Source: Gaiellales bacterium (GTDB lineage Bacteria; Actinomycetota; Thermoleophilia; Gaiellales; JAICJC01). From it: a stretch of 64,000 nt of DNA. The notes under the pieces are model-generated. The model made no database searches. It was given only the letters and a program-made list of their open reading frames with translations, and was not told the origin of the DNA. Of the stretch, positions 1 through 29,955 are shown in pieces. Location of the stretch: the NCBI GenBank assembly GCA_038230835.1, contig JBBRMM010000003.1, forward strand, positions 79,904 through 143,903, written 5' to 3'. How positions within the stretch are numbered: position 1 is the stretch's first letter; every line of letters begins with the position of its first letter. The translations under genes and the position numbers were made by a program.

Positions 1-2
1 TG

Positions 3-719
3 CTTCGGATCTCCTACCACGGCCGCTCGGTCATCGCGGAGAAGCTCGATGTTGGCCGAGGTGGGCCGGCCCATCCGAAGATCGATCTCTGGTGGCAGAC
101 CGCAGCCCTCCTGGGCTTCAACGGGATTGGCGACGTTCGCATCACCGCCGCGCCCCCCGGAGCACAGCCGACCCCCATCCCTGGAGCACACTCGACCGGG
201 GATTCCATAGACACTCAGGCATGCGCGGGGTTCGTGGACGACGGCTCAGCCGGATCGCGTGCTGTTGCCGCCGCGCTTCGGTGGCTGGGAACCCCATACT
301 CGTGGGGCGGCGGCGACGCGAACGGTCCCACTCTTGGCACCTGCGGTCCGGCGGGGTGCCAGGGAGTTCGCGTCCGCGGGTTCGACTGCTCCGGGCTGAC
401 GCTGTATGCCTGGGCGCAGGCGGGTGTGTCTCTGTCGCATTTCACCGGTGACCAGTGGAACGAGGGCCTACGCCTCGCACCGTCGATCTCCGATGTTGAC
501 CAGCTGAGGCCGGGCGACCTGGTCTTCTTCAACATGGACGGACCGCTGGGTCACGTTGGCCTGTACGTCGGGGACGGAAAGATGGTCGAGGCTCCACACA
601 CCGGCGACGTCGTGAAGGTCGTCAACTTCACTGCCGGTGCCTACGCAGCGGCGTACGCCGGGGCGGTCCGACCGATGCCGCGATCGAGCCCGCTCGCGTC
701 GGCTGGGTCAGCGAGATGA
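3..719 (+). CDS. NlpC/P60 family cell-wall peptidase, 5' end outside the window
   Basis: The frame is open from the window edge. It carries the motifs GTPYSWGGG, GFDCSGL (catalytic Cys) and GHVGLYVGDGKMVEAPHTG (His). Its stop overlaps the next start (ATGA at 716). This type of hydrolase is typical of actinobacterial conjugation loci. Confidence 0.85.
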   Translation, partial: LRISYHGRSVIAEKLDVGRGGPAHPKIDLWWQTAALLGFNGIGDVRITAAPPGAQPTPIPGAHSTGDSIDTQACAGFVDDGSAGSRAVAAALRWLGTPYSWGGGDANGPTLGTCGPAGCQGVRVRGFDCSGLTLYAWAQAGVSLSHFTGDQWNEGLRLAPSISDVDQLRPGDLVFFNMDGPLGHVGLYVGDGKMVEAPHTGDVVKVVNFTAGAYAAAYAGAVRPMPRSSPLASAGSAR

Positions 720-2404
720 GCGCCAAGGCTCCGCGGTTCCCTCCACCGCGGTCGCAGGCGCATCCGCTCGAGGTTCTGGCAATTGGCGCGGTTGTCGTCG
801 TGGTCGCCATCGCCGCGGAGCTGTGGCTCACCGGGGAGCTCGCCGGGCGGCTCTTCGGTGGCGCATGGCCTCGAACGCCTCTCGGGGAAATGGCCCGTGT
901 GCTCGGCCGCTTCCGCGACCACGTGTCCGATCCGGCGAAGGCGTGGCCCCGTCCCGAGCGGCGGCTCATTCCTGCGGCAACAGCCTTCTACGCGACGGTC
1001 CTCACCACCCTAATACCGCTTGCCGGGGTGGGGCTTCTTGTCCTCCGGCACCGATCCCGATCGGCCCTCCCCAAGACTGGAGGCGCTCGCTGGGCGGGGA
1101 AGCGCGATCTGCGGCTCCTCCGAGTGGACGAACCACTTCCCGGTCGGCTGACGTTGGGGCACGTGGACGGCCATCTCGTGGCGGCGGAACCCCGCCAATC
1201 CGTGATCGTCGTTGGCCCAGTACAGACCGGGAAGACGTCCGGGTTCGCCGTCCCCGCGATCCTCGAATGGCAGGGGCCGGTCGTCGCCACGTCCGTCAAG
1301 ACGGATCTCCTTCGAGACACTCTTGCGGCGCGCTCGGCCATCTCGGGAGCCAGCGTGTGGGTGTACGACCCAACTGGAGGGACAGGAATTCCGTCGGCCG
1401 ACTGGACGCCGGTGGCCGGTTGCCACACCTGGCAGGGCGCGCAACGCACCGCGTCGTGGCTCGTCAATGCCGCGCGGCGAGGAACCGCGGGCATGGAGAA
1501 CGCCCAGTTCTGGTACGCAGCTTCGGAGAAGCTCTTGGCTCCGCTCTTGTTCGCCGCCGCGCACTCGGAGCAGACGATGGCGGACATCGTGCGCTGGGTC
1601 GACACCCAGGAGGAGGAGCAGGTCAGATGGGGCCTCGAACTGGCTGGCGATCCGGCCGCGATGGCGGCGTTCACGGCATCTACTCTGCGGGACGAACGCA
1701 CCCGTTCCAGCATCTACACCACGGCCGAGACCTTGCTCACCGCGTTTGCCGACCCGGGCGTGCTCGCCTCGGCGCTCGACGCCGAGATCCAGGCCGACCG
1801 CCTGCTCGACGGCGCCTCGCACACGCTATACCTCTGCGCGCCCGCCCACGAGCAGCGGCGCCTTCAGCCGCTCTTCGCGACGGTGATTCAGGAGATCGTT
1901 GCGCGCGCCTACGAGCGGTCGACGGAGATCGGCGGCCCGATCGACCCGCCCCTGCTGCTGGTACTCGACGAGTGCGCCAACATCGCGCCGCTCCGCGAGC
2001 TCGCGACGCTCGCCTCAACCGGAGCCGGCCAGGGAATCCAACTCGTCTCCGTCTTCCAGGATATGGCCCAGATCAACGCGGTGTACGGCCGCGACCGGGC
2101 ACCGACGATCGTCTCCAACCACCGAGCCAAAGTGATCCTGTCAGGGATCGCGGACGCTCAAACCATCGACTACGTTGCCCGACTCCTCGGGGACCAGGAA
2201 GTGCCCCAGGTCTCATCTACCAGCGATGGCGAAGGTCGTCGCTCGAAGACCGAGTCGATCGGGTACCGGAGCCTTGCGCCGGCCAACGTACTCCGAGAGA
2301 TGCAGCCCGGCAGTGGGCTCCTGGTCTACGGGCACGTGGCGCCGGCACGGATCGCGCTTCGACCATGGTTTAAGGATCGAAGGCTGCGGCGCCTGGCCGG
2401 CTAG
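716..2404 (+). CDS. Type IV secretion coupling protein (VirD4/TraG-like T4CP)
   Basis: 562 aa with N-terminal hydrophobic helices, Walker A VVGPVQTGKTSG, Walker B-like LLLVLDECANIAP, and QLVSVFQDMAQINAVYG typical of the TraG/TraD family. Confidence 0.85.
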   Translation: MSAKAPRFPPPRSQAHPLEVLAIGAVVVVVAIAAELWLTGELAGRLFGGAWPRTPLGEMARVLGRFRDHVSDPAKAWPRPERRLIPAATAFYATVLTTLIPLAGVGLLVLRHRSRSALPKTGGARWAGKRDLRLLRVDEPLPGRLTLGHVDGHLVAAEPRQSVIVVGPVQTGKTSGFAVPAILEWQGPVVATSVKTDLLRDTLAARSAISGASVWVYDPTGGTGIPSADWTPVAGCHTWQGAQRTASWLVNAARRGTAGMENAQFWYAASEKLLAPLLFAAAHSEQTMADIVRWVDTQEEEQVRWGLELAGDPAAMAAFTASTLRDERTRSSIYTTAETLLTAFADPGVLASALDAEIQADRLLDGASHTLYLCAPAHEQRRLQPLFATVIQEIVARAYERSTEIGGPIDPPLLLVLDECANIAPLRELATLASTGAGQGIQLVSVFQDMAQINAVYGRDRAPTIVSNHRAKVILSGIADAQTIDYVARLLGDQEVPQVSSTSDGEGRRSKTESIGYRSLAPANVLREMQPGSGLLVYGHVAPARIALRPWFKDRRLRRLAG

Positions 2405-5114
2405 ATGTAGATGCGAGGGTGGGCCTACCGACGACGCCGGCTGCGGATGCGCGTATCCCGGAGACGGCACGCGCGACGGCGGCGGGCAGTGTTAGATGTC
2501 CTTTCGGGACAAACGCATACGGAACCAATGTGATCCGTTCGCGCGTCCGCTCGCGAACGAGGACTCTAAGCTCCGTTCGGATCTCGTCGTGGATATCGAC
2601 GCCAACCGAGGCTCCCATCTCTAGCGACGCGACTATCGCGTATCGCACCGGCATTGCGAGGCGGCCGGCGTCCACGCGACAATCGACGTTGATCTCTAGC
2701 GCGTCGCCACGAGTGAAGCCGACGGCCGCCCTGCCTTCGAGCACGTGGTGCTGAACTGTCCCCTTTGCGAGCGCATGGCGGTCGGCCTCAATCGGGTTGA
2801 CGCCGACCTCCGCTCGCGGTGGTGTCACAGAAAGCCGTGCCATTCTGTACTTTTGGGACCGAGGGTTCACGGGCGTTAGCCACGCGAGAGTCACGGTAAG
2901 ACGACGCCATTCCGCTTTTGCTGCAAGCGACGGCGGCAATGGGAAGACGTGTGTGTGACGAACGTCCTTCGATATCGAGGCCGCTCCGATGACGACAGCG
3001 CGTATTGGACTGGCCGATGCCACGCGATCGATATGTACACGGCCGTAGCCCAGGATCTGCGTCAGCTTCCGTCGGGCCTGGACCGGATCGAGGTTGAGCA
3101 GCGCTCTGAATGACGGCTGAAGCTCGCCCCATCGCGCCGCGTGAACGAGGAGCGCTTTCGCGAGAACCGGGTGATACTGGGGATCCGGGAATTCGAAGGC
3201 GCCATCGTCCGGCTCAAGGGTTTCCAACTCTTCGAGGATATGGCCCAGCGCTCGGGTCGCCAGCGCTGCGGCGTTGCTTGTCCCACACGAGAATGAGGTG
3301 GAGTTGAGGCTGCCCGCCATCCCTGGCGAAGCCGTGCGAAGCCCAGGCCCTACGGCTGGTGCGATAGCAGGGTCGTAGGCAATCTCCGGTTCGCCAGTCT
3401 GAGGGGGATTGATGAAAAACTCTCGGCCGCCCGGGAGTAGCACCTCCGGCTTCACCGATCGGCGGTATCCAAAGCCGACCGGACTATAGGCCGCAACCAA
3501 TCCATCAGGAATTAGATCGATCACGCCGTCGCTCGACGGCGGGTCGGCCCGATCCTCGTGCAGCGCTCCGACTGTGATGGCATTGACAGCTTCGGCAGGC
3601 GAGAGCAAACGCCGTGTTCGCGCCTGGTCGAACATCGAGACGGCGGCGGCCCGGCGCACAGCGTCGATGTCCCCCAACACACCCGCCGCAATGACGGGTC
3701 TCGCCGATGTGTTTCCTCCGCTGACGACAACAATTACGTTGTAATGGTGGCTGAGCCAGTCAACGAGCCTCGCGAGAGGGCTCATTCGGCGGACGAACTG
3801 CCGGCCAGGATCACCTATCGAAAGATTGAAAACCCGCACGCTCGGTGCGACTGCGGCTGCCCCGCCCTCGAACACACGTCGAAACGCTCTATGCACCACG
3901 TCAACCAAAGATTCGTCCGTGGGCACGGTTTCGTGGTCCGTGAAGAACGTATGAGGCTCCAGGATCGGGTAGACGTAGATCGGGTGCGCCAGGGGAGTGC
4001 CTGGATCCGAGAGATCTCCATGAATGATTAGGGATGCCATCGCCGTGCCGTGACTCTGCTGGCTTGGCGCATATTTCGAACCGCGGTCGTCAGGATCGTC
4101 AATGAGAACACGACCGCGAAGGGCATCGTGGTTTTCGAGCGGCAGACCGTCCAGCAGGGCGATCCGCGGCAACCCGGTGGAAGGACTATCCACGACAGGG
4201 ACCGCCGCGAGCTTGACTGGTTCCAGTACGGGAATAGCCATCGGCCGATGCGCACTGACGAACATGACCGACTCGGCCTGCAAGAGCTCAATCGCATCTG
4301 TGCCACGCCGGAGAACCTGTTCAACCGTGTTGTAAGGGATATCCGCGAGCACGCTATGGAAGGCGATCTCGGCAAAGGATGAGCTGCTGACGAAGGTACC
4401 GCTGGCGTCGCTGATGATCTTCACGACGTCTTGCTCTGCGGCGCGCCGACGAGCCTCGTCATCCCGGTACCAAAGTTCGATCTCGACTCGCGCGTACCCC
4501 CGCGCGCCGATCATCTCGACGTCCTCCTGCCAAGCTTCAAGGAGGCCTGTTTCGCGAACGCGATCCTCGGGACCCCACTTTCGTACGGACCGAAGGAGCC
4601 CAAAAACATTCTTCAGGGGATTCAAGCCCCTTTCGAATGTGATGGATTGATCGTCCTGCCACAAACCGAAGAGGCGCACCAGCTCCGTGACTGCTCGGGC
4701 GTCCGACATAACCATGTACAAGGAACAAGGGACGCCATCGTCTGCAATCTCACCGGTGGCTTCGTAGTAGAAATCGTCATCGGGATCGACGTAGTCCTCT
4801 TGGCTTTCCACGAGAAACTCTAGGCCCGGCACTTTCGCTGCAGCTCGCATGAAGCCCTCTTCGTTCCCTGCGAGATCGAATACGGCGACGAGTTCGGGAT
4901 CGCTCGTTACTGCCGACGCGACCAGCTCAGCCCGTTGCTCACTGAGGGCATCCTGGAGCGATCCAAACTGCGGTGTGAGGCGCGCCCCCTGTGCGCGCGC
5001 CCCTGGACGCTTCAGCGGACGAAAGGAGGTACGCGCTGCTGGTATCGCCCCAGCCGCTGGCGTCCCGAGCGCGAGGATCTCCCGCCGTTCCGCTAACCCG
5101 CTTGGAGTCGCCAT
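2370..5114 (-). CDS. ietS: S8 subtilisin-like serine peptidase, IetS-like, with an uncharacterised N-terminal region of about 330 aa
   Basis: 914 aa. The S8 triad context is visible: IALLDGLP (Asp), SHGTAMASLIIHGD (His), SCGTSNAAALATRA (Ser). The start overlaps the stop of the upstream AAA ATPase by 22 nt. The IetS assignment is inferred from the gene pair architecture. Confidence 0.75.
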   Translation of the reverse strand: MATPSGLAERREILALGTPAAGAIPAARTSFRPLKRPGARAQGARLTPQFGSLQDALSEQRAELVASAVTSDPELVAVFDLAGNEEGFMRAAAKVPGLEFLVESQEDYVDPDDDFYYEATGEIADDGVPCSLYMVMSDARAVTELVRLFGLWQDDQSITFERGLNPLKNVFGLLRSVRKWGPEDRVRETGLLEAWQEDVEMIGARGYARVEIELWYRDDEARRRAAEQDVVKIISDASGTFVSSSSFAEIAFHSVLADIPYNTVEQVLRRGTDAIELLQAESVMFVSAHRPMAIPVLEPVKLAAVPVVDSPSTGLPRIALLDGLPLENHDALRGRVLIDDPDDRGSKYAPSQQSHGTAMASLIIHGDLSDPGTPLAHPIYVYPILEPHTFFTDHETVPTDESLVDVVHRAFRRVFEGGAAAVAPSVRVFNLSIGDPGRQFVRRMSPLARLVDWLSHHYNVIVVVSGGNTSARPVIAAGVLGDIDAVRRAAAVSMFDQARTRRLLSPAEAVNAITVGALHEDRADPPSSDGVIDLIPDGLVAAYSPVGFGYRRSVKPEVLLPGGREFFINPPQTGEPEIAYDPAIAPAVGPGLRTASPGMAGSLNSTSFSCGTSNAAALATRALGHILEELETLEPDDGAFEFPDPQYHPVLAKALLVHAARWGELQPSFRALLNLDPVQARRKLTQILGYGRVHIDRVASASPIRAVVIGAASISKDVRHTHVFPLPPSLAAKAEWRRLTVTLAWLTPVNPRSQKYRMARLSVTPPRAEVGVNPIEADRHALAKGTVQHHVLEGRAAVGFTRGDALEINVDCRVDAGRLAMPVRYAIVASLEMGASVGVDIHDEIRTELRVLVRERTRERITLVPYAFVPKGHLTLPAAVARAVSGIRASAAGVVGRPTLASTSSRPGAAAFDP

Positions 5115-6049
5115 TGCTCAATGCAGCCGCGGACGATCGCTTTCAGATCGCCTTCTGGAAGTGCAAGAACGTAACGTCGCCGGACATCGAGGGCGAACTG
5201 TTCCAGTTCTGAGTAGCTTGCCCCCCGTAGGCGATCGGCGAGGGTTCTTGGTGTAAGTCCCAAAGCTCCAAGCCGAGAAGTCAGGATCTCCAGAAACCGA
5301 GTTGCCTCCACCCGCGTCGGAGGCTTCAGCGTGAGTCGAATCTGAAACCGCCGCCAGGCGGCTCGATCAAGGAGCTCCGCGTGATTCGTTGCGCAAACGA
5401 CGATCACGTGTGCTGGCAACCGATCGATCTGCAACAACAGCGTAGAGACCACACGCTTTATCTCACCCGTCTCGTGTACATCCGATCGTTCCTTGGCCAG
5501 TGTGTCAAACTCGTCAAAGAACAGGACACAGCGACGGGTCCTCGCGAACTCGAAAGCTTGATCCAACCGGGCAGTCGTCTCCCCTAAGAAGCTCGAGACG
5601 ACGCCCTCGTATCGCACCACATAAAACGGCAGCATGGTCTCCGTAGCGATGGCCTCGGCGAGGCTCGTCTTACCGTTTCCCGGAGGACCTTCAAGGAGCA
5701 CGCGGTTTCTCGGCACAAGATTGTGGCTGCGGAGCAGTTCGATCCGGTGGTGCTCCTCGATGAGTTCGGCGGCGGCGGTGGCCACGGCCGGCGCGAGCTG
5801 GAGCGTACTGAGGCGGCGCGTAGGGACAATCTCGTGGACCAGGTCCGTCACACGAGATGCAGCGCCATCGCGTTCCAACATCCCGGCAGAACCGACGGTC
5901 GTGATTAGCTCGGAGAGCCTGTCGGCGACGAGATGGTGTTGTTTAGCCCGCTCCTCGGCGATGATCGCCTCTACGAGCACGCGAAATCGGTCTCTGTCGT
6001 TGCGTCGTTCGGCTTCGACGAGGTCAACGAGAAGATCAGAACGTGCCAT
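5093..6049 (-). CDS. ietA: AAA+ ATPase, IetA-like
   Basis: 318 aa with Walker A LLEGPPGNGKTSLA, Walker B VLFFDEFD, sensor VVCATNH and an arginine-finger region RAAWRRF. It lies directly upstream of the S8 peptidase and is translationally coupled to it. Confidence 0.8.
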   Translation of the reverse strand: MARSDLLVDLVEAERRNDRDRFRVLVEAIIAEERAKQHHLVADRLSELITTVGSAGMLERDGAASRVTDLVHEIVPTRRLSTLQLAPAVATAAAELIEEHHRIELLRSHNLVPRNRVLLEGPPGNGKTSLAEAIATETMLPFYVVRYEGVVSSFLGETTARLDQAFEFARTRRCVLFFDEFDTLAKERSDVHETGEIKRVVSTLLLQIDRLPAHVIVVCATNHAELLDRAAWRRFQIRLTLKPPTRVEATRFLEILTSRLGALGLTPRTLADRLRGASYSELEQFALDVRRRYVLALPEGDLKAIVRGCIEQWRLQAG

Positions 6050-6317
6050 CAGAGCCGATCCGGCATTGTGGGAGTCTACGGCAACTCACGATGGAAGCTT
6101 GCCAGGTACCGCGGATGACCGCCCGGATCCGACCGGCGGGCGAGGAATGTCGATTCCGAGTGTCTGTGCCCGGTGGCGCCCAGCGGCGGGTGGCTCGATC
6201 TGGCAGAGCTGGTTGAGTCGGGCCGCACGGCGCTGGCTCCCTCGCCAACTGGACACTTCCGGTGCGGGGCGCGCTGGCCGAGCATACGGGAGGCTACTGA
6301 GCATCTGGCGGCCGCCC

Positions 6318-9254
6318 TTATCTCTCGATGCCGAGTTCACGCGTCTCCCTCGCCCACGGGCTCCGCACGATCTCAATCGGTACTCGCTCCGCAAGCCGCT
6401 CAGGCGTGCGATCTGCTCTACGCGTCTTGAACTTCGCCTGTTCGAGGAGAGCTGTGGTCTCGGCAAGCCGTTCATCAGCCAGATCGATCGCATACCGCTG
6501 AAGCCCTATCTCGGTGCGGACCTCGTCGCGACGGCGGCGCCGAACCGGGCTACGGTGCGCGAGTTCGCGTTCGGCCATCTCTAGTCTCCGCTCAGCGACT
6601 TCGCGCGTCTTCACAAGTGCGCGGCGCTTCTGCTCGAGAAGCCGCAGGTGCAACTGGTCATCCACGTTCGGCGCCGAGCGCTCGATCTCCGGTCGCGCCG
6701 CGTGCCTCGGGCCGGACGGGAGCGGGCGCTGGTCGACTGCGAGCCGCTCGACCGCGGACTCCTCGAGCGCGCGGCCGAAGCGGCTGAGCGGGTCGCGGTC
6801 GTCGAGGTCGTGGAAGTGGCTCTCCTGCTCGCGCGGGTTGCCGGTGACGTAGAGGCGTGTCTCCGTTCGCGCGCGGGACAGTGCGACGTATCCCCATTCC
6901 TGCAGCCGTGCCTCGCCGGCTCCGAGGACGAAGGCGCGCTCGACGGTGAGACCCTGCGCGGCGTGACCTGTGAGGGCGTACGCGTGGCGAACATTGCCGG
7001 CCTCCAGGTAGCGGCGGCTGAGCTCGACGGTGGGGCCGCGGTCGGTCGCAACGACGAGTGCCCGCCGGTCGTGGTCGACGCGCTCCACCGTGCCGCAGGT
7101 GCCGTTCTTGACGCCGAGTACGTCCGAGTTGCGCAGGCAGACGACGCGGTCGCCGGCGGCGAACTCGCTGTCCGAGATGGTGAGCCGCTCCTTGCCGAGC
7201 CGCCCATCCCTCTCCATCAGCGAATGAGCGAGCTGGTTGAGGTCGGAGACGTCACGGCGGCGGAGCGCGAGCATGACGTTGCCGCCCAGGTCGTCATGGG
7301 CGTGCTCCCACCAGTCGGCGAGCAGGCGCGTTCGCGTCGTCACGGGGCTCTCGGAGACGAGCAGCCGTTCACGCTTCTCGGCGTAGGCCAGGTAGTCGCG
7401 ACCGACGCCGGCCCGGATGCGGGCGAGCGCGTAACGCTCGACCTCGTCGCGCTGGCGGCGGTTCTCCTGGAGGACAACAGCGCCCTCGCGCTCGACGATG
7501 CCCGCGAAGAGCCCGCCTGCGCCGACGGCAGGCAGCTGGTGCGGATCGCCGATCAAGATGACCTTGGCCTGTGCCTGTTCGGCGAGTTCGAGCACTCGGG
7601 CGAGGACGCGTGTCTCGGCCATGCCGGCCTCGTCGACGATGAGCACGCTCGAGTGAGGCAACCCTCCCTCGTGGCGCGTGTCCTCGAGCAGTCGATGGAG
7701 CGTGACGGAAGCGATGCCGGTCTCATCCTGGAGCTTCTCGGCCGCGACGCCAGACGGCGCAACGCCGATCACGGGGACGCCCTCGTGAGCGAAGACCTGT
7801 GCAACGGCATGGGTGGCGGTGGTCTTGCCGGCGCCCGCGATGCCGACGACGCAGACGACCCGGCCCTCGCTCGTCGCAACCTCGCGCACCATCGTCTCCT
7901 GCTCGTCCGACAGCTCCAAGCGGTCGGCGCGCTCGATCTCGGCGACACGCCGCTCGCTGATTGATGGTGCTTTGGCGTCCCGGCCACGCGCGACGAGTGC
8001 GAGCGCCGCTCGCTCGACCGCGATCAGCTCGGCCGTCGAGTAGCGGGTCGGACGGCCCGGTGACGGCGCCTCACCGACATGCTCGACACCGTCGGTCTGT
8101 GTGAGCCGTGCGGCAAGCTGGCGCACTCGGTCGGCGGACGCACCGGCCGTGTGGGCTTCCGACCACGCCACGACGACGTCGGGATCGGAGAATGCCGTCC
8201 GCTTTTCGGTCAGCCCCTGTGGCCCGAGCAGGCGCCGGGCGATCCGAAGCAGCTCGTCGGCGTCGGGCTGACGGTGCCGGACGCGCCCGAGCAGCGCACG
8301 CAGCTCGCGCGTCCCGAGGCCATGTTCGGCTGCCCGCGCTCGCCAGTCCTCACGCAGCCCCACGAGGTCGATCTGCTCCTTGCGCTCTCGTGTCTCGACC
8401 GCCGCGAGCTGTGCAGCGTAGAAACCGCCATCGCCGCGGCGGGCGAGTTGCTCCTCGACCTGGATTCTCCGCGTCGAGAACTCGCGGATCACGCCGCGCG
8501 GAACATGCCGAAGATCCGCCAGGCCCTTCTGCGGCGTCTCCCACTCGACCCCAACCGCGCGCGTGAGCTCGTTCCGCAGATGGGCCTGGTAGAGGTAGCC
8601 GGCAGCGAGCCGGTAGGTGCGCAGGATCGCCTCCCCGTCGAGCGCTCGCCACTCCTGGTCGGCCGGTGACTGCGCCATGTTGGCCACAATCACGTGCGTG
8701 TGCAGGTGCGGGTCCTGGGCGCGGCTCGTGCGGTGCTGGTACGCGGCGGCGACGAATCCGACGGCATGCTCGCGACGCCTCCCTTGCGCCTCACGCCGGA
8801 TCACGCATGCTTCGTCCTCGAGATAGGCGAGGGCCGCCTGCCAGGCGCTCGTGTGCGCCTCGTTGACGGCTCGGCGGGTTTCCTCGTCGCCGAGCGCATG
8901 CAAGAGGCTGACGCTCTTCGGGACGCTGAAGACGAGGTCGAAGCCGGCGACGGGCGCGAGCTTCTTCGTCTCGACGACGCGCTCGTCTGTCAGCGGGTTG
9001 ATCCGCTCGATCGTGATCTGCCGTGCCCGTCGGTGCATGCGCAGCTCGGCATCGGTGTGCGGGTGGCGGCCGCGGATCAGCCGCCCGAGCTCACCCTCCT
9101 GCACGAGCCCTTCGAGCTCGAGCTCACGAGCGCCGCGACCTGCCCAGACGCCGGGTGACTCACCGCGGCCCGCGTAGTAGTCGTCGAGCCCCGCCGCAAC
9201 CGAGCGCTCGTAGTAGCCCTCCTGCCCCGGCGTGAGTTTCGCGACGCTCAGCAC
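6318..9254 (-). CDS. MobF-family conjugative relaxase (TrwC/TraA-like) fused to a RecD-like SF1 helicase
   Basis: The N-terminus VLSVAKLTPGQEGYYERSVAAGLDDYY and the His motif DPHLHTHVIVANM indicate a TrwC relaxase. The helicase part shows VVGIAGAGKTT, IVDEAGM, ILIGDPHQLPAV and GHAAQGLTV. I chose the GTG at 9254 as the start; the ORF-track ATG at 9311 adds 19 non-conserved residues. Confidence 0.9.
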   Translation of the reverse strand: MLSVAKLTPGQEGYYERSVAAGLDDYYAGRGESPGVWAGRGARELELEGLVQEGELGRLIRGRHPHTDAELRMHRRARQITIERINPLTDERVVETKKLAPVAGFDLVFSVPKSVSLLHALGDEETRRAVNEAHTSAWQAALAYLEDEACVIRREAQGRRREHAVGFVAAAYQHRTSRAQDPHLHTHVIVANMAQSPADQEWRALDGEAILRTYRLAAGYLYQAHLRNELTRAVGVEWETPQKGLADLRHVPRGVIREFSTRRIQVEEQLARRGDGGFYAAQLAAVETRERKEQIDLVGLREDWRARAAEHGLGTRELRALLGRVRHRQPDADELLRIARRLLGPQGLTEKRTAFSDPDVVVAWSEAHTAGASADRVRQLAARLTQTDGVEHVGEAPSPGRPTRYSTAELIAVERAALALVARGRDAKAPSISERRVAEIERADRLELSDEQETMVREVATSEGRVVCVVGIAGAGKTTATHAVAQVFAHEGVPVIGVAPSGVAAEKLQDETGIASVTLHRLLEDTRHEGGLPHSSVLIVDEAGMAETRVLARVLELAEQAQAKVILIGDPHQLPAVGAGGLFAGIVEREGAVVLQENRRQRDEVERYALARIRAGVGRDYLAYAEKRERLLVSESPVTTRTRLLADWWEHAHDDLGGNVMLALRRRDVSDLNQLAHSLMERDGRLGKERLTISDSEFAAGDRVVCLRNSDVLGVKNGTCGTVERVDHDRRALVVATDRGPTVELSRRYLEAGNVRHAYALTGHAAQGLTVERAFVLGAGEARLQEWGYVALSRARTETRLYVTGNPREQESHFHDLDDRDPLSRFGRALEESAVERLAVDQRPLPSGPRHAARPEIERSAPNVDDQLHLRLLEQKRRALVKTREVAERRLEMAERELAHRSPVRRRRRDEVRTEIGLQRYAIDLADERLAETTALLEQAKFKTRRADRTPERLAERVPIEIVRSPWARETRELGIER

Positions 9255-9273
9255 GAGTGTGACTATAGCGCAT

Positions 9274-9295
9274 CTCGACCCATTTATGGGTCGAG
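9274..9295. promoter_or_regulatory. Perfect 9-bp inverted repeat (CTCGACCCA-TTTA-TGGGTCGAG) directly upstream of the relaxase gene; candidate oriT hairpin
   Basis: Read directly from the sequence. The repeat is flanked by GACTATAGCGCA on one side and TGCATCTGTGTCTCAC on the other. These recall the hairpin-plus-TGTCT/ATAG layout of MobF oriT nic regions as I remember it for R388. Confidence 0.4.
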
Positions 9296-9350
9296 TGCAT
9301 CTGTGTCTCACTACCTACCGAGGGTAGTAGATAAGGCGGACGGTTGCTGT

Positions 9351-10958
9351 TCAGGCTGCCTCGTCGAGTGCCTCCTCGGTGCCTTCGCGTGGGTCGCTGG
9401 TCTGCTGCTCAGCTAGGTGCCTGCGGACGCTGGCGGGTGCGACGCGACGGGCGAGCTTGCCGAGGAGCTCGGAGGTTGCGAGCAACTCGGGCTCGTAGAT
9501 GCCTTGCCGGTCGGCGTTCGGCAGCCCGTCCGTGTCGGCCAGCCGTTGTGCGACGAGGAGGCGCAATACGACCGCGAGCGCGTCCTCGGGCGTGCGGGTG
9601 CGCCGGAGGGCGGCGAGGGCCCCGGCGTGGTGCTCCCGCTCGGCGTCGGCGCCGCGTGGGTAGCGGACGGTCTCCCTGCCTTGCTTGTTTGTCGTGGCCG
9701 ACTGGTCGACGCAGAGCCGGTGCGCCCAGGCGGCCGCGCGTCCGTGGTGCTCGAGCACGATCTGCCCGAGGAGCTTGATCGCGTCCGTGTCGAGCTTCGG
9801 CTGCCAACGGGCGAGGGCTGCGCCGAGGTCGAGGTTGCGCGACCGGGCCGAAACGCGCGCCTCGTGCTGCCGCTCGCGCTCGCGGCGGCGCTCCTCCTTG
9901 GCGCCATCGTCCTGCGATGCCGAGGGGCCGCGGGAGTCGCGCTGCTCCCTGCGCTCGGCCTCCGCTGCCGTGTGGGCGGCGATCCTCTGCACGAGCCGAT
10001 CCGCGAGCCAGCCGGGATCGGTGACGTAGCGGTGCTCGCGTCCGCTGTGGCCCGGAAGTTCGAGCAGGCACCCGAACGCGCGCGCGGCGTCGGCGTCATC
10101 GTCTACGAGCGCGAAGCAGTCCCGCTCCCGGCGCTCTTCGGTCTGGCTGGCCTGCCAGTCGTGCTCGGACGTTTGCGGGATCGCGGGCAGTGCTCGGTAG
10201 GCGTTCTCGATCGTTTGCGCGTGGTCGCCGAACTTCGCGAGCACGGCCGCGAGCCTGTCGTCTGCGGGCGGGGTGACCGGGCCGCGGAAGCCGCCGACGC
10301 TGTAGGCGACCGGGTGCAGCGGCTGGCCGTTGTCGGCCCACTCGGCGCGCAGCACGTCGTCGAGTACCTCACCGGGGGCGGTGGGGAACGCTGCGGCATC
10401 GTGCGGGCGCTCGCTCAGCCAGAGGGCGGCCAGGTCTGCGAGGAGCGGCTCGCGCTCGGCTATCCGGAGGAGCACGGGCGCGCAGGCGAGCGGCACCCGA
10501 CGGGCCGCGATCAGCTGCGCCGTCTCGTCGGGGAGGCGGAGCAGGTCGAGCCGGTCCGAGATCAAGCGCTCGCTCTTGCCGACGAGCTTCGCCACCTTCG
10601 CCGCATCGCCGTGCTCGTCGGCGAGGCGGCGGTAGGCGCGAGCCTCCTCCATGGGGCTGAGGTCTGCGCGGATCACGTTCTCCGCGACCGCGAGCGTGAG
10701 CGTTGCGCCGTCTGCCTCACGGATCTGTGCGGGCACCTCGCGGAGCTTTGCGGCCTTTGCCGCCCGGTAGCGGCGCTCCCCGGCGATGATCGCATAGCGG
10801 CCGTCGCCGTCGTGGGACAGCGTCAGCGGGGTGATGATCCCGTAACGCTTCACGGAGTCGATCAGCTCGGCCATGCGTTCGTCGTCGAAGACCGTGCGCG
10901 GGTTGCAGTCGCTCGGGCGGATCTTGGCGAGCGGGATCATGCTCAGGCTGGTGGTCAT
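9351..10958 (-). CDS. ParB/Srx N-terminal domain protein with a long uncharacterised C-terminal region
   Basis: 535 aa. The ParB-like domain shows IPLAKIRPSDCNPRTVFDDERMAELIDSVKRYGIITPLTL and IIAGERRYRAAKAA. Its start overlaps the stop of the DUF932 gene by 4 nt. Confidence 0.8.
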   Translation of the reverse strand: MTTSLSMIPLAKIRPSDCNPRTVFDDERMAELIDSVKRYGIITPLTLSHDGDGRYAIIAGERRYRAAKAAKLREVPAQIREADGATLTLAVAENVIRADLSPMEEARAYRRLADEHGDAAKVAKLVGKSERLISDRLDLLRLPDETAQLIAARRVPLACAPVLLRIAEREPLLADLAALWLSERPHDAAAFPTAPGEVLDDVLRAEWADNGQPLHPVAYSVGGFRGPVTPPADDRLAAVLAKFGDHAQTIENAYRALPAIPQTSEHDWQASQTEERRERDCFALVDDDADAARAFGCLLELPGHSGREHRYVTDPGWLADRLVQRIAAHTAAEAERREQRDSRGPSASQDDGAKEERRRERERQHEARVSARSRNLDLGAALARWQPKLDTDAIKLLGQIVLEHHGRAAAWAHRLCVDQSATTNKQGRETVRYPRGADAEREHHAGALAALRRTRTPEDALAVVLRLLVAQRLADTDGLPNADRQGIYEPELLATSELLGKLARRVAPASVRRHLAEQQTSDPREGTEEALDEAA

Positions 10959-11998
10959 GAGAGCGTTCCTCCTTCGGTTAGGAGCACGAGCGCGCGATCC
11001 TTCAGCGCGGCCGGCTCGGTGGCGCGCTCGAAGCGCGCTTCGCGGTGGCTGCGGCTCGCTGTCTCGCGTGTCGGCTGTGTGTGGTCGACGTAGGCGGCCA
11101 CTCCCTGCAATGCGCCCCAGCGCGTACCAGTGATATTCGCGAGATCGGGGGTTGCCGTGTAGGCGGTCGCGATCGCCTCGCGGACGCGCTCGGCGTTACG
11201 GACGGCGCGGCCGCCGCTGGTCGGATCGTGGCGCGGCTCGGGCATGGGAACGAGGGCGGCGAGGAAGCGCTCGAATTCGGCGCCGCTGATCGGCTCGCGG
11301 AGCAGGCGTCCGCCGATCTGCTCCAGCTCGTCGTAGTAGCGCCAGGCGATCCCGAGCGTGCGGCGGGCGTCGATGAGCCGTGCGTCGAGGTTGGCGGTGT
11401 GGCGGGCCTTCCACACGCGGGCGGCGCCATCGAGCGGGAGCATCATCCCGTTGAGGCACGCGAGCCGGAATGGGGCGACGCTGATCGTCACGGCGAGGCC
11501 GCCGTCGTGGCCGTTGCGGAAGCAGAGCAGCGGCAGTACGTCTTCCCCCTCCGCGTCCCCGATGCGGATCTCGCGGTCGAGTTGCATCAGCGCGTGCACG
11601 CGGGCGCCGCCGCGCGTCTCACCCGCGCCGAGCCAGTGCGCCTCGCCGCTGTCGGTGATCGCGTCGCAGAACGCGAACGCGGCCCGGTTCTGCAGCGGCT
11701 CGTAGCCCTTGCCGACGACACCAAGTACCGTCCCTGTGTCGCTGCGCAGGTTTGCGACGACGCGCGGCACCGGCACGCGGCGCGGCCCGTCGTCGTCGTG
11801 GTCGCCGAGCACTGCTTCGAGCGGATATTGCTCGACAGTCCAAGCAAGGTCGGCGGCATCAATCATCGCCGCTGCCGAGCACCCCTCCTCGGGGCGCAGG
11901 GCTCGCACAACTTCGCCCCATCCGGACGGCCGCCCGCCGAACCAGAGCGGTGATCGGGCGTCCTTGATGCGGTAGCTCGGTGTCTCCATTGTCGTCAT
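10955..11998 (-). CDS. DUF932 (phage/plasmid-like TIGR03299 type) protein
   Basis: 347 aa. Sequence character and its fixed position next to a ParB-like gene fit the DUF932 family common in ICEs and plasmids. The call is from memory of the family, not a search. Confidence 0.65.
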   Translation of the reverse strand: MTTMETPSYRIKDARSPLWFGGRPSGWGEVVRALRPEEGCSAAAMIDAADLAWTVEQYPLEAVLGDHDDDGPRRVPVPRVVANLRSDTGTVLGVVGKGYEPLQNRAAFAFCDAITDSGEAHWLGAGETRGGARVHALMQLDREIRIGDAEGEDVLPLLCFRNGHDGGLAVTISVAPFRLACLNGMMLPLDGAARVWKARHTANLDARLIDARRTLGIAWRYYDELEQIGGRLLREPISGAEFERFLAALVPMPEPRHDPTSGGRAVRNAERVREAIATAYTATPDLANITGTRWGALQGVAAYVDHTQPTRETASRSHREARFERATEPAALKDRALVLLTEGGTLS

Positions 11999-12015
11999 GT
12001 CTGCTTCTCCCTTCG

Positions 12016-15500: not shown

Positions 15501-15914
15501 CTTCGTATCGTAGGGCTCGTAACTCCAGCCTCCGAGGTCCGAGGGCTCGTCGATCCGGACGAGGAAGTCGGCGCGTCCGCGCCAGCCGGCACGTGGGAAA
15601 GTCGCCTGGTAGATGACGTCTGCGCCTGCACACATCGCGGCGATGGTGGTCGCATGAGCCTCGTCGAAGGCGGCGGGGTGTTCCGGTAGCTCGACCTCGG
15701 CGATCGCGCGGCCATTGGCCCGGAGCTCCTCGAGGTACCGCTTCTCGTGCAGGTCGCCCTTGTCGGCGACAAGCTGCGCGAGCGCCTCGCGGATGTGCGG
15801 CTTCGTCCGTCTTCTGTGCGCGGTCTCCAGTTCGAGCGTGGTCAGGTGCGGACACGCGAGGTAGTTCGAGAGGTCGGACGGAGAGAGAAGAAGTTGGCCG
15901 TCGTGCAGCTGCAT
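12594..15914 (-). CDS. Three-domain protein: Cas4/AddB-like PD-(D/E)XK nuclease with a Cys cluster, an RNase-H-like (YprB/TM0106-type) exonuclease domain, and a Dna2/Upf1-like SF1 helicase
   Basis: 1106 aa.
- N-terminal nuclease: YLACPH, GRADFLV, YEPYDTKL, CEHCSRCDFVPVC (pattern C...CxxCx5C).
- Middle exonuclease: FFDMEGDP, HVYHYATYE, AYNEEDC.
- C-terminal helicase: VVQGPPGSGKTY, LVVDEAGQ, LLGDPLQLGQV, VDKFQGREA, LNVAVSRAQ. Confidence 0.85.
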   Translation of the reverse strand: MQLHDGQLLLSPSDLSNYLACPHLTTLELETAHRRRTKPHIREALAQLVADKGDLHEKRYLEELRANGRAIAEVELPEHPAAFDEAHATTIAAMCAGADVIYQATFPRAGWRGRADFLVRIDEPSDLGGWSYEPYDTKLARSAKPAAVLQLAWYAGEIAAIQGRLPECLHVVLGTAEVETYRPADVEAYLRIAQRRLRAHVEDTPETYPWPCEHCSRCDFVPVCRDRWVADDHLTRVASIRRDQIGKLATVDITTLTALGEAPAGLAVRRLAPAMVEKLCDQSALQLHRYRTDELTHRLLVPEERRGLGLLPAPSPGDLFFDMEGDPFYDPAEGLEFLFGVLCRDPGGTTTYRPFWAHDRDGELRAFEEFVDLVGERRQAFSDMHVYHYATYEPSTLARLMGTHATREEEIDEFLRGEIFVDLLQVVRQGIRAGVDSYSLKDVEKLFFTRRAEVSSGNEAVIEFERWLDDKDAARLDAIAAYNEEDCLATLELRGWLLSRLPEAEREHGVPIPFLPPPEGRPEAEHDEAPAETARLRDALLADASDGDGRELAARLLEYHRREARPGWWWYFRRLRMTDEELADDGEAIGSLEHDGAEPVDLSIANPRAKSLEWTFTFPPQQHQFDEGDGGEDPREEGTGWTVSTIDNATGVVRLRRSKEMRDAPLPTSLVPGGPIGTKAQQAALRRLASSLLAGDGRYMHLERLLRCELPLCGALMQCRELADQRDVLDRLEDSYLVVQGPPGSGKTYRGARLITHLLAQGRKVGITAQSHRVIHNLLAEVERAAAEEGLDFKGVKRGDHFESAHVKTSASIAALLDPDVTLVAGTAWLFAREELDGEFDTLVVDEAGQFSLADALACGTSAKRLVLLGDPLQLGQVTQGVHPYGSRASVLEHVLGDHETIPENMGVFLEETRRMHPTVCRFISQAFYEGRLGSIPACAERTTSDGVGVRWFDVSHEGNRVASEEEAVAIATEIERLVGHTFRDRQGERPLRHADVMVVAPYNAQVRLLRERLPRSVEVGTVDKFQGREAAVVFYSMASSSGEDVPRGLDFLMSRNRLNVAVSRAQCLAYVACSPRLLEVDCRTVEHLKLANALCRFVELAEASA

Positions 15915-21970: not shown

Positions 21971-21972
21971 CC

Positions 21973-29737: not shown

Positions 29738-29759
29738 GGGCAGCAAACGGGCAGCAAAC
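29738..29759. repeat. Tandem 11-bp direct repeat GGGCAGCAAAC x2
   Basis: Read directly from the sequence, in the non-coding stretch between brxA and the tRNA fragment. Confidence 0.6.
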
Positions 29760-29916: not shown

Positions 29917-29955
29917 TTGTTCCTCTGCTCGGTTGAGCACTCCGTTTTGCGAACC

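What the first reader, a model, noticed from the sequence alone, without database searches (positions are those of the whole stretch)
2370..6049. IetAS-like AAA ATPase plus S8 protease pair inserted between the relaxase and coupling-protein genes
- A 318-aa AAA+ ATPase with all motifs intact is translationally coupled (22-nt overlap) to a 914-aa protein whose C-terminal two thirds is a subtilisin-like S8 peptidase with an intact D/H/S triad.
- This ATPase plus serine-protease architecture matches the IetAS anti-phage system reported in the 2020 defence-system screens. Its mechanism is still unknown.
- Two details deserve a second look:
  - The protease has an N-terminal region of about 330 aa with no motif I recognise. 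It could be a sensor or substrate-binding part.
  - The pair splits the two core conjugation genes (relaxase and T4CP) and looks less GC-rich than its neighbours by eye, which suggests secondary acquisition into the ICE backbone.
Basis: partly seen in the sequence, partly recalled or inferred. Interest (0 to 1): 0.6.

Follow-up and report, generated by a model that had tools for sequence, protein, structure and literature searches.

The report
IetAS defence pair in ICE hotspot
This is an ordinary member of the known IetAS system (a toxic protease held in check by an ATPase), carried as interchangeable cargo at a defence-gene hotspot of a conjugative element in an uncultured soil actinobacterium.

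Summary
ietA (5093-6049, minus strand, 318 aa) overlaps ietS (2370-5114, minus strand, 914 aa) by 22 nt. Both match PADLOC IetA and IetS profiles over nearly their full length (E 1.6e-141 and 3.6e-280), and all ATPase and protease catalytic motifs are intact.

The pair has the lowest GC3 (0.65-0.67) and codon adaptation of any gene in the element.

It did not split a contiguous relaxase-T4CP pair. In related elements from Gaiellaceae/Thermoleophilia genomes, the convergent relaxase and T4CP genes are always separated by 2-9 kb of different cargo. This cargo includes Hma, a Druantia DruE, CBASS, methylase/ATPase sets, PDC-M30/M41 and an RHS toxin. The site is a cargo hotspot. IetAS occupies it only in the window and in one 97%-identical metagenomic relative.

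The statement that the mechanism is unknown is only partly right:
- IetAS was first described in 2009 as a toxin-antitoxin plasmid-stability module of pTiC58.
- It was later shown to act by abortive infection.
- Its protease targets remain unknown.

New details:
- The N-terminal ~300 aa is specific to this IetS subfamily and is predicted to form a helix plus two βαββαβ modules.
- IetA resembles p97 and has an intact pore loop.
- The last 49 residues of IetS are a TAA-to-TAT stop-loss read-through.

Verdict: a new member of a known kind.

The parts
5093..6049 (-). ietA: 318-aa classic-clade AAA+ ATPase, the presumed antitoxin/regulator. It has an N-terminal helical region (about residues 1-100) followed by a single AAA+ module.
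   Evidence: PADLOC IetA PDLC04232, E 1.6e-141, residues 1-316. Pfam AAA, E 5e-30. Closest solved sequences are p97/VCP, Cdc48 and NSF, E 2e-40. Walker A, pore loop, Walker B, sensor 1 and Arg fingers are invariant. It is 30% identical over its full length to the Ti-plasmid IetA.
2520..5114 (-). ietS conserved body (residues 1-865): N-terminal domain, S8 protease and C-terminal beta-rich domain. This is the presumed toxic effector.
   Evidence: PADLOC IetS PDLC04233, E 3.6e-280, residues 11-857. It is 97% identical to the 865-aa P0001 with no gaps. The AF2 model has pLDDT 82 and pTM 0.86.
4215..5114 (-). IetS N-terminal domain (residues 1-300): a long helix (39-67) followed by two tandem beta-alpha-beta-beta-alpha-beta modules (about 74-179 and 207-288). 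Its role is unknown; a sensor or intramolecular latch is proposed.
   Evidence: AF2 model of the N-domain, pLDDT 86. Foldseek gives only weak PDB hits, to tandem ACT and BMC-T type ferredoxin-like proteins. No Pfam family passes its cut-off. There are 1033 representatives in 1.84 billion proteins, always N-terminal, and the full-length ones among the 150 listed are mostly about 840-890 aa. The domain is not aligned with the Ti-plasmid IetS.
3045..4163 (-). IetS subtilisin-like S8 catalytic domain (about residues 318-690) with D322, H355, N468 and S613.
   Evidence: Pfam Peptidase_S8, E 5e-20. The catalytic residues are invariant in 66 sequences. Foldseek hits include pro-Tk-subtilisin, PCSK9, site-1 protease, kexin and furin, E 5e-11 to 1e-6.
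2526..3017 (-). IetS C-terminal beta-rich domain plus terminal helix (about residues 700-863). It is conserved with the Ti-plasmid IetS.
   Evidence: Secondary structure of the AF2 model. The BLASTP alignment with pTiKerr27 IetS extends to residue 847. No Pfam match.
2370..2519 (-). Stop-loss read-through tail of IetS (residues 866-914 plus the stop codon). The codon TAT at 2517-2519 replaces the TAA stop of the closest relative. The tail runs antisense across the last 35 nt of the T4CP gene.
   Evidence: DNA alignment with L002. P0001 ends at residue 865. Nearly all homologues listed are about 790-880 aa. pLDDT is below 50 for residues 864-914.
6050..6317 (-). 268-nt spacer between the relaxase stop and the ietA start. 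It travels with the IetAS module: it is shared with L002 but not with relatives that lack IetAS.
   Evidence: blastn results. No sigma-70-like promoter was found. A 5-codon uORF (ATGCCGGATCGGCTCTGA) overlaps the ietA ATG.
2405..6404 (.). Variable cargo segment of the element in this window. No relative other than L002 shares any of it.
   Evidence: blastn of window 1-7000 against 67 loci. Relaxase-side homology ends at about 6405-6440, and T4CP-side homology starts at about 2397.
6318..9311 (-). TrwC-type (MOBF) relaxase-helicase. It flanks the hotspot and lies upstream of ietA on the same strand.
   Evidence: Pfam TrwC, E 2e-78, and AAA_30, E 1.6e-52. 66 related loci were found in Gaiellaceae/Thermoleophilia MAGs.
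716..2404 (+). Type IV coupling protein (T4CP). It flanks the hotspot and converges on ietS.
   Evidence: Pfam T4SS-DNA_transf, E 2e-38, TraG-D_C and TrwB_AAD_bind.

Best explanation
The pair is a bona fide IetAS module of the subfamily captured by PADLOC models PDLC04232 and PDLC04233. It is carried as exchangeable cargo in the defence hotspot between the convergent relaxase and T4CP genes of an integrated conjugative element in a Gaiellaceae-like actinobacterium.

Proposed working model. Steps 1-2 are shown for other IetAS systems in the literature. Steps 3-4 are inferred here.
1. IetS is a cytoplasmic subtilisin-like protease whose unrestrained activity is toxic.
2. IetA is made from the overlapping upstream gene in a fixed ratio and keeps IetS harmless. 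A phage protein, or loss of the element, breaks this restraint. The cell then stops growing or dies, which gives abortive infection and, as a by-product, addiction to the element.
3. IetA is a p97/Cdc48-like hexameric unfoldase with an intact aromatic pore loop. It probably acts by ATP-driven engagement or remodelling of IetS rather than by simple binding.
4. The subfamily-specific N-terminal region of IetS (two ferredoxin-like modules preceding the catalytic domain) is the most likely handle, latch or sensor through which IetA or the trigger acts.

The 49-residue C-terminal tail is a recent stop-loss read-through and has no function of its own.
For: Identity:
- Near full-length profile hits for both proteins.
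- Intact motifs in both proteins.
- A conserved AAA-then-S8 overlapping gene pair in six other contexts.
- IetA is 30% identical over its full length to the Ti-plasmid IetA. The IetS protease and C-terminal domains align with the Ti-plasmid IetS.

Cargo status:
- Lowest GC3 and codon adaptation in the element.
- None of 66 related relaxase loci carries IetAS.
- The same slot holds HmaAB, DruE, CBASS, methylase/AAA_5, GHKL ATPase/methylase, PDC-M30/M41, an RHS toxin or an MFS transporter in relatives.
- The window is a mosaic. Its relaxase side and IetAS are 94-98% identical to L002, while its T4CP side is 74% identical to L002 and 88.8% identical to L053.

Mechanism:
- Toxin-antitoxin behaviour of AAA/S8 pairs (PMC13069673; PMC8562856).
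- Abortive infection triggered by phage SPbeta YosG (10.1101/2022.08.27.505566).
- IetA is closest to the p97/Cdc48/NSF unfoldases, and the F-x-G-E-T pore loop is invariant.
- IetS shows no transmembrane segment and no strongly hydrophobic N-terminus.
- Fold matches include pro-form subtilases that retain an N-terminal ferredoxin-like prodomain.
Against: - No experiment exists for this subfamily or for any actinobacterial IetAS. The tested systems (Agrobacterium, Bacillus, E. coli, Mycoplasma) share only the ATPase and the protease core with it.
- The N-terminal domain has no significant sequence or strong structural match, so its role as latch or sensor is conjecture.
- Model coordinates could not be inspected, so no contact between the N-domain and the active site was verified.
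- The stop-loss tail could impair IetS. It could also be an assembly error.
- No promoter was identified, so expression and co-transcription with the relaxase are unknown.
- The element's integrase and attachment sites are not in the window.
Confidence: 0.8

Rival explanations
1. The pair's main role here is addiction or stabilisation of the ICE, with phage defence secondary. IetA would decay faster than IetS after loss of the excised element and kill segregants, as shown for pTiC58.
For: - IetAS was originally shown to determine the stability and incompatibility of pTiC58 (Yamamoto 2009, as cited).
- IetA homologues cover at least 80% of the query on 381 plasmids, and IetS homologues of this subfamily occur on 102 plasmids, 45 of them conjugative.
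- The pair sits on a mobile element directly downstream of the relaxase on the same strand.
Against: - The slot it occupies is filled by classical anti-phage systems in relatives, and the same element carries a BREX type 3-like cluster. This points to selection for defence.
- 66 related elements do without it.
- The two roles are not mutually exclusive.
Confidence: 0.3
2. The module is decaying or inactive. The stop-loss extension, and the abutting of ietS on the T4CP gene, would be scars of a rearrangement that left a non-functional IetS.
For: - The TAA-to-TAT change adds 49 unstructured residues.
- The ORF now overlaps the T4CP 3' end by 35 nt.
- The about 170-190-aa gene that follows T4CP in 12 relatives is missing here.
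Against: - All catalytic and nucleotide-binding residues are intact, and there are no frameshifts or internal stops over 865 + 318 codons.
- IetA is 100% identical and IetS 97% identical to the L002 copies, with conservative changes, which indicates purifying selection.
- The closest T4CP-side relative, L053, also lacks the 170-aa gene, so its absence is not a scar specific to this window.
- A disordered C-terminal tail is often tolerated.
Confidence: 0.07
3. The pair is a conjugation accessory: a protease and chaperone that process relaxase, pilins or other T4SS substrates, co-expressed with the relaxase.
For: - It lies on the same strand as the relaxase and immediately downstream of it.
- In L002 the called relaxase ORF overlaps ietA.
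Against: - It is absent from all 66 related relaxase loci, which keep DUF932-ParB-relaxase and T4CP.
- Close IetS homologues sit beside McrBC, OLD-like ATPases, toxin-antitoxin genes, transposases and integrases, not beside conjugation genes.
- Its composition differs from the backbone.
Confidence: 0.03
4. IetS is a secreted housekeeping subtilase with an unrelated neighbouring ATPase.
For: - S8 proteases are commonly secreted.
- The N-terminus reads ERREILALGTPAAGAIPAA, which vaguely recalls a Tat signal.
Against: - There is no hydrophobic segment (maximum KD19 of 1.26), and the RR is not conserved in the family consensus (ExRPLLAF).
- The tight overlap with the ATPase is conserved in every homologous locus.
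- Both proteins hit IetA and IetS profiles.
Confidence: 0.02

Closest known systems
IetAS of Agrobacterium Ti plasmids (pTiC58; compared here with the pTiKerr27 copy, locus L069)
   Same: - ATPase gene directly upstream of an S8 protease gene on a conjugative element.
- IetA is 30% identical over its full length (E 7e-39).
- The protease core and the C-terminal domain align (25% identity, residues 355-847).
- Both pairs hit PADLOC IetA and IetS models.
   Different: - The N-terminal ~300 aa of IetS is not detectably related. The PDLC04233 profile matches the Ti protein only from profile position 292.
- The Ti genes are separated by a few nucleotides rather than overlapping by 22 nt.
- The host phylum differs (Actinomycetota versus Alphaproteobacteria).
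- The Ti copy lies among metabolic genes, not between the relaxase and T4CP.
IetAS anti-phage systems of Gao et al. 2020 and Stokar-Avihail et al. (B. cereus m1293), represented by PADLOC models PDLC02195-02202
   Same: - Two-gene AAA+ plus S8 architecture.
- IetA hits PDLC02196 at E 7.9e-71.
- The literature shows abortive infection with a phage-protein trigger.
   Different: - IetS hits these older models only through the protease region (E 1.9e-20, residues 301-762).
- This subfamily has not been tested experimentally.
Actinobacterial plasmid AAA/S8 pairs (Mycolicibacterium chubuense pMYCCH.01, M. lentiflavum, Gordonia, Kocuria, Rhodococcus)
   Same: - Same IetS subfamily: 44-52% identity over residues about 8-844.
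- Gordonia IetA is 73% identical.
- The ATPase gene lies upstream.
   Different: - They are on plasmids rather than in a chromosomal element.
- In pMYCCH.01 the neighbours are ParAB, WhiB and helicase genes rather than a relaxase and T4CP.
- They are annotated only as 'ATP-binding protein' and 'S8 family peptidase'.
Mycoplasma AAA-ATPase/subtilisin-like toxin-antitoxin module (MMCAP2_0132/0133)
   Same: - The ATPase antitoxin is upstream of the S8 toxin.
- The pair is horizontally mobile.
- Deleting the antitoxin alone is lethal (PMC8562856).
   Different: - It was not compared by sequence here.
- The toxin is 757 aa.
- It is chromosomal in a minimal genome.
ietHAS (Liu-DS4), a three-gene variant with an SNF2 helicase
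   Same: - It has an IetA and IetS core.
- Protease activity is required for defence.
- An ietA mutant could not be constructed (PMC13069673).
   Different: No helicase gene is part of the module here. The flanking genes are the relaxase and T4CP.
Pro-subtilisins and proprotein convertases (pro-Tk-subtilisin, PCSK9, kexin/furin)
   Same: - They are the best structural matches of the full-length model (E 5e-11 to 1e-8).
- They have a ferredoxin-like module N-terminal to the S8 domain and a beta-rich domain after it.
   Different: - Sequence identity is only 11-15%.
- phmmer finds no hit in the PDB, and Pfam finds no Inhibitor_I9 match.
- IetS has two such modules plus a long helix, no signal peptide and a partner unfoldase.

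Membership tests
IetAS (PADLOC definition) | A protein matching an IetA profile HMM | tested here: met
   PDLC04232, E 1.6e-141, residues 1-316 of 318. Also PDLC04231, PDLC02196 and PDLC02195.
IetAS (PADLOC definition) | A protein matching an IetS profile HMM | tested here: met
   PDLC04233, E 3.6e-280, residues 11-857. PDLC04234, E 1.2e-157. The older models PDLC02197-02202 match only the protease region.
IetAS | The two genes are adjacent and co-oriented, with the ATPase upstream | tested here: met
   5093-6049 (-) is followed by 2370-5114 (-) with a 22-nt overlap. The same arrangement occurs in L002 and L070-L073, and in L001 and L069 without an overlap.
IetAS | A catalytically competent AAA+ module (Walker A/B, sensor 1, Arg fingers, pore loop) | tested here: met
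   GPPGNGKT 121-128, F154-L-G-E-T158, D179-E180, T221-N222 and R233-R234, all invariant in alignment A5.
IetAS | An S8 protease with an intact Asp/His/Ser triad and oxyanion Asn | tested here: met
   D322, H355, S613 and N468 are invariant in 66 sequences. Pfam Peptidase_S8, E 5e-20.
IetAS | Homology to the founding pTi IetA and IetS over their whole length | tested here: inconclusive
   IetA: yes, 30% identity over its full length. IetS: only residues 355-847 align, and the N-terminal ~300 aa are not detectably related.
IetAS | Toxin (IetS) / antitoxin (IetA) behaviour, plasmid stabilisation or anti-phage activity | not testable with these tools
   Known only from the literature on other members.
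IetAS | A cytoplasmic protease (no export signal) | tested here: met
   Maximum Kyte-Doolittle 19-residue score is 1.26. The first 40 residues peak at 1.72 over 12 residues, below a typical signal-peptide core. The N-terminal RR is not conserved in the family consensus. No dedicated signal-peptide predictor was available.
Integrative conjugative element (MOBF type) as host of the module | Relaxase and type IV coupling protein | tested here: met
   TrwC relaxase, E 2e-78, and T4SS-DNA_transf/TraG-D_C T4CP, E 2e-38. NlpC/P60 hydrolase at 234-719.
Integrative conjugative element (MOBF type) as host of the module | Integrase and attachment site in the element | tested here: not met
   The window has no tRNA. 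No integrase was found among the ORFs at the 28.5-31 kb transition to housekeeping genes. The left end of the element lies outside the window. Chromosomal integration is inferred from relatives on contigs of up to 4.3 Mb.
Integrative conjugative element (MOBF type) as host of the module | Mating-pair formation genes (VirB4-like ATPase and others) | not tested
   They would lie left of position 1. In L002, genes beyond T4CP give only faint AAA_10 and P-loop_TraG hits.
Subtilisin propeptide (Inhibitor_I9) as the identity of the IetS N-terminal modules | Sequence match to the I9 family | tested here: not met
   No Pfam hit at E <= 10 for residues 1-305, 70-180 or 200-295, apart from one E 0.018 match to Peptidase_M49.
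Subtilisin propeptide (Inhibitor_I9) as the identity of the IetS N-terminal modules | Beta-alpha-beta-beta-alpha-beta fold packed on the catalytic domain | tested here: inconclusive
   The topology is present twice. The full-length model matches pro-form subtilases best. The isolated N-domain gives only weak ACT and BMC-T hits, and coordinates could not be inspected.

The most novel reading that the evidence does not exclude
In this IetS subfamily the protease would be a cytoplasmic zymogen. One of its two N-terminal ferredoxin-like modules would act as a built-in prodomain-like latch. The p97-like IetA hexamer would control it by threading, either continuously re-setting the latch (antitoxin) or extracting it on a phage cue (activator). 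This would be an unfoldase-gated protease switch in bacterial immunity. It would also explain why the ATPase and the protease always travel as an overlapping gene pair.
Probability: 0.2. Interest if true: 0.65.

Novelty: new member of a known kind. Interest (0 to 1): 0.3.

Why it matters
Standard defence-system profiles recognise the pair at once, so its identification adds little.

Its modest value lies in three points:
1. It documents IetAS, together with a BREX type 3-like cluster, on a conjugative element of Gaiellales/Thermoleophilia. This is an abundant but uncultured soil actinobacterial lineage whose mobile elements are hardly described.
2. The interval between the relaxase and T4CP genes in this ICE family is a defence-cargo hotspot with a different system in almost every relative. 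Such a site is a convenient place to look for new systems.
3. It gives a concrete structural hypothesis for the unknown IetAS mechanism: a p97-like pore-loop ATPase paired with a protease preceded by two ferredoxin-like modules. The molecular mechanism of IetAS is still open and no solved structure was found.

Tried and rejected
- A megablast of window 1-12000 against PLSDB plasmids found nothing. The element is not a known plasmid.
- A sigma-70 promoter and terminator scan of 2000-6700 gave no promoter, and terminator-like sites were at chance level. This is uninformative for an actinobacterium.
- A search for tRNA genes or an integrase to delimit the element found none in the window.
- Pfam at E <= 10 on the N-terminal domain, on its two sub-modules and on the C-terminal domain gave nothing usable.
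- A phmmer search of IetS against PDB sequences gave no hit at E <= 0.01.
- I first read the absence of the about 170-190-aa gene that follows T4CP in 12 relatives as a deletion specific to this window. I withdrew this when L053, the closest T4CP-side relative, was found to lack it too.
- I rejected the idea that IetAS is functionally tied to relaxases. Four other close homologues sit in defence or transposon neighbourhoods without conjugation genes.
- The Yamamoto 2009 paper itself (PMC2704731) is not held. Its content is cited through two later papers.


Full report
**1. The observation**

- 5093-6049 on the minus strand, 318 aa, ATG start.
- 2370-5114 on the minus strand, 914 aa, ATG start.
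- They overlap by 22 nt.

Pfam finds a single AAA module in the first (E 5e-30) and a Peptidase_S8 domain at residues 346-676 of the second (E 5e-20). The flanking genes are a type IV coupling protein (716-2404, plus strand) and a TrwC relaxase-helicase (6318-9311, minus strand). These are followed by ParB and DUF932 genes.

The GC dip is real:
- Windowed GC is 0.58-0.63 across about 2.5-6.0 kb, against 0.67-0.72 on either side.
- GC3 is 0.655 for ietA and 0.669 for ietS, against 0.77-0.90 for the conjugation/partition backbone genes.
- Codon adaptation to the chromosomal genes of the window is 0.42-0.43. This is the lowest of any gene in the element (0.49-0.70).

**2. Identity**

PADLOC profiles settle the identity:
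- IetA PDLC04232: E 1.6e-141 over residues 1-316.
- IetS PDLC04233: E 3.6e-280 over residues 11-857.

The older IetA models also hit strongly (E 8e-71). The older IetS models match only the protease region (E 2e-20, residues 301-762).

Motifs are intact:
- In IetA the Walker A (121-128), an aromatic pore loop (F154-L-G-E-T158), Walker B (D179-E180), sensor 1 (T221-N222) and R233-R234 are invariant. This holds across the window, five actinobacterial or metagenomic homologues and a Ti-plasmid IetA.
- In IetS, D322, H355, N468 and S613 are invariant in a 66-sequence alignment.

IetS has no hydrophobic segment (maximum 19-residue Kyte-Doolittle score 1.26). The RR near its N-terminus is not conserved in the family consensus. 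It is therefore taken to be a cytoplasmic protease, not a secreted subtilase.

**3. What is known about the family**

The literature held here gives an older and fuller picture:
- IetAS was named in 2009 as a toxin-antitoxin system that determines the stability and incompatibility of pTiC58. The protease is the toxin and the ATPase the antitoxin. This is Yamamoto et al., J Bacteriol 191:4656, cited in PMC13069673 and PMC8562856. The paper itself is not held.
- An AAA/S8 pair is a functional toxin-antitoxin module in mycoplasmas, where deleting the ATPase alone is lethal (PMC8562856).
- A Bacillus cereus IetAS protects by abortive infection. It becomes toxic when the SPbeta protein YosG is expressed (10.1101/2022.08.27.505566).
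- In a three-gene variant the protease activity is required, and an ietA mutant cannot be built (PMC13069673).

The protease targets, the way IetA restrains IetS, and the way the trigger is sensed remain unknown.

I compared the window pair directly with a Ti-plasmid pair (pTiKerr27, locus L069):
- IetA is 30% identical over its full length (E 7e-39).
- IetS aligns only from residue 355 to 847 at 25% identity.
- PDLC04233 matches the Ti protein only from profile position 292 onward.

The window pair is therefore a member of the family, but of a subfamily whose IetS has a different, or unrecognisably diverged, N-terminal third.

**4. The N-terminal region**

The region is not an oddity of this gene. 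A phmmer search of residues 1-311 against 1.84 billion cluster representatives found 1033 hits at E <= 0.001. The match always lies at the N-terminus, and the full-length proteins among the 150 listed are mostly about 840-890 aa. No fusion to another kind of effector appeared among the best 150.

Structure predictions:
- AlphaFold2 with a 66-sequence alignment gave a confident full-length model (pLDDT 82, pTM 0.86).
- The N-domain model has pLDDT 86.
- The N-domain is a long helix (39-67) followed by two beta-alpha-beta-beta-alpha-beta modules (about 74-179 and 207-288), then a linker into the catalytic domain.

Fold and sequence searches:
- Foldseek of the whole model against the PDB finds pro-form and multidomain subtilases first: pro-Tk-subtilisin, PCSK9, site-1 protease, kexin and furin (E 5e-11 to 1e-8).
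- The isolated N-domain finds only weak matches (E >= 4e-4, TM 0.2-0.3). These are to proteins built of two ferredoxin-like modules, such as tandem ACT domains and BMC-T shell proteins.
- Pfam finds nothing for the N-domain or the C-terminal domain, even at E <= 10.
- No PDB sequence matches IetS at E <= 0.01.

IetA's AAA module is closest to p97/VCP, Cdc48, NSF and Rix7 (E 2e-40). These are substrate-threading unfoldases. Together with the invariant pore loop, this suggests that IetA acts on a polypeptide, most economically on IetS itself.

**5. The C-terminal tail**

The closest relative is P0001, 97% identical without gaps, and it ends at residue 865. Nearly all homologues listed are about 790-880 aa.

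The DNA alignment shows that the relative's TAA stop is TAT in the window (2517-2519). Homology continues for about 28 nt beyond it. The window ORF therefore reads through 49 extra codons to a TAA at 2370-2372, running antisense over the last 35 nt of the T4CP gene. The model gives pLDDT below 50 for residues 864-914.

This is a recent stop-loss or a sequencing error, not a domain.

**6. Context: what the pair is inserted into**

A search with the relaxase in species-representative genomes returned 66 loci. Nearly all are from Gaiellaceae, Gaiellales, Thermoleophilia or unclassified Actinomycetota MAGs. Many are on chromosomal contigs of up to 4.3 Mb. The element is therefore an integrated conjugative element family of that lineage.

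None of these 66 loci encodes IetA or IetS. The only other carrier is an ENA metagenomic contig (L002). There the order is relaxase-ietA-ietS, followed by a NERD protein, a type II CBASS (SMODS cyclase, ThiF-like E1, JAB) and then T4CP.

In 11 relatives with the DUF932-ParB-relaxase ... convergent T4CP synteny, the interval between the relaxase and T4CP is 2.1-8.1 kb. It is 9.3 kb in L002 and about 9.4 kb in L003, and its content differs each time. Seven further relatives have no T4CP within the 10 kb fetched. The cargo identified downstream of the relaxase is:
- PDC-M30/M41 (a TcmP-like protein plus DUF5131) in L006.
- A GHKL ATPase in L009.
- A GHKL ATPase plus a methylase in L003.
- A 1762-aa RHS toxin in L013.
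- A type II methylase, an AAA_5 ATPase and an unknown gene in L014.
- HmaA and HmaB in L005.
- A 1960-aa DruE in L008.
- An SNF2 helicase in L012.
- An MFS transporter in L047.
- A transposase in L004.

A blastn search of window 1-7000 against all loci shows where backbone homology stops. It ends at about 6405-6440, inside the last codons of the relaxase, and resumes at about 2397, at the T4CP stop. The roughly 4-kb segment in between is cargo.

The window is also a mosaic:
- Its relaxase side is 94% identical to L002, and its IetAS is 97.6% identical.
- Its T4CP side is only 74% identical to L002 but 88.8% identical to L053.

The picture of a pair that 'splits' two adjacent core genes is not. 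The genes are convergent, and the gap between them is a standing hotspot for defence cargo.

Close IetS homologues elsewhere always keep the overlapping ATPase gene. They sit beside McrBC plus a methylase, an OLD-like ATPase, MazEF/Phd toxin-antitoxin genes, transposases or an integrase, not beside relaxases. On plasmids, the subfamily occurs in Mycolicibacterium, Mycobacterium, Gordonia, Kocuria and Rhodococcus (44-52% identity), and more distantly in many rhizobial replicons.

**7. How it most likely works**

Shown for other IetAS systems: the protease is toxic, the ATPase neutralises it, and a phage protein can unleash toxicity, giving abortive infection.

Shown here: both enzymes are intact, IetS lacks an export signal by the simple tests available, and the genes overlap, which would tie their synthesis together.

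Inferred:
- IetA, as a p97-like threading ATPase, restrains or resets IetS through ATP-driven engagement.
- The subfamily-specific N-terminal modules are the handle, latch or sensor.
- On an ICE, the same circuit would also penalise loss of the element.

I give 0.8 to the combined claim of identity and cargo status. I give about even odds to the specific toxin-antitoxin/abortive-infection mechanism applying unchanged to this subfamily.

The rivals rank lower, for the reasons listed under each:
- Pure addiction module: 0.3, and not exclusive of the main explanation.
- Decaying remnant: 0.07.
- Conjugation accessory: 0.03.
- Secreted subtilase: 0.02.

**8. Novelty and score**

This is a new member of a known kind, recognised at once by standard profiles. 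The modest points of interest are:
- the host lineage;
- the relaxase-T4CP defence hotspot;
- the structural hypothesis for a system whose molecular mechanism is still open.

Interest: 0.3.

Noticed in passing
window 17838-28777 (+): A BREX type 3-like cluster on the same element: BrxF-like (17838-18299), BrxC/PglY (DUF6079, 18287-21970, E 0), PglXI methylase (21973-24570), BrxHI SNF2 helicase (24567-26993) and PglZ (26990-28777). GC is 0.62-0.66, also below the backbone. No BrxA was identified.
   Followed up: partly
window 12594-15914 (-): A 1106-aa protein with an RNase_H_2-like domain (residues 319-497) and an SF1 helicase (AAA_11/AAA_12/AAA_30). Its C-terminal half hits PADLOC MkoA/MkoC models (E 7e-50). 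It lies between DUF932 and an IS, and L002 has methylase genes at the equivalent place.
   Followed up: partly
window 16226-17563 (-): An IS transposase (DDE_Tnp_1_4, E 1e-55) between the helicase gene and the BREX cluster.
   Followed up: no
L002 12853-17601: In the 97%-identical relative, ietS is followed by a NERD-domain protein and a type II CBASS (SMODS cyclase, ThiF-like E1, JAB) before T4CP. This makes three stacked modules in the same hotspot. Homology with the window ends about 28 nt after the ietS stop.
   Followed up: partly
L006 12874-13449 and equivalents in L002, L003, L007, L009-L011, L013, L014, L042, L043, L047: A conserved gene of about 166-191 aa with no Pfam match lies directly downstream of T4CP in 12 relatives (53-92% identity). 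It is absent from the window and from L053.
   Followed up: partly
window 1-2369 versus L053 17968-20350: The element is a mosaic. The NlpC/P60-T4CP side is 88.8% identical to L053, whose relaxase side is only about 65-78% identical. The relaxase-IetAS side is 94-98% identical to L002, whose T4CP is 74% identical. This implies recombination at or near the hotspot.
   Followed up: partly
window 6050-6317 and L002 8854-8934: There is a 78-bp indel plus two 1-bp indels between the window and L002, just downstream of the relaxase stop. In L002 the called relaxase is split (607 + 493 aa) and its second ORF overlaps ietA. In the window the relaxase is a single 997-aa ORF whose C-terminus aligns to residue 997 in several relatives.
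   Followed up: partly
window 6049-6066 (-): A five-codon upstream ORF (ATG CCG GAT CGG CTC TGA) ends in a TGATG overlap with the ietA start codon. This may be translational coupling or chance.
   Followed up: no
window 28800-31300: This is the transition from element to housekeeping genes (DUF1326, MFS transporter, sigma-70/SnoaL, and later a 1602-aa NAD-glutamate dehydrogenase at 55216-60024). It shows no integrase and no tRNA. Several long ORFs there have no family match, so the right boundary of the element is undefined.
   Followed up: partly
L071 17413-18604: In one homologous locus a second S8 peptidase gene lies about 7 kb downstream of the IetAS pair, among transposases and a resolvase.
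   Followed up: no
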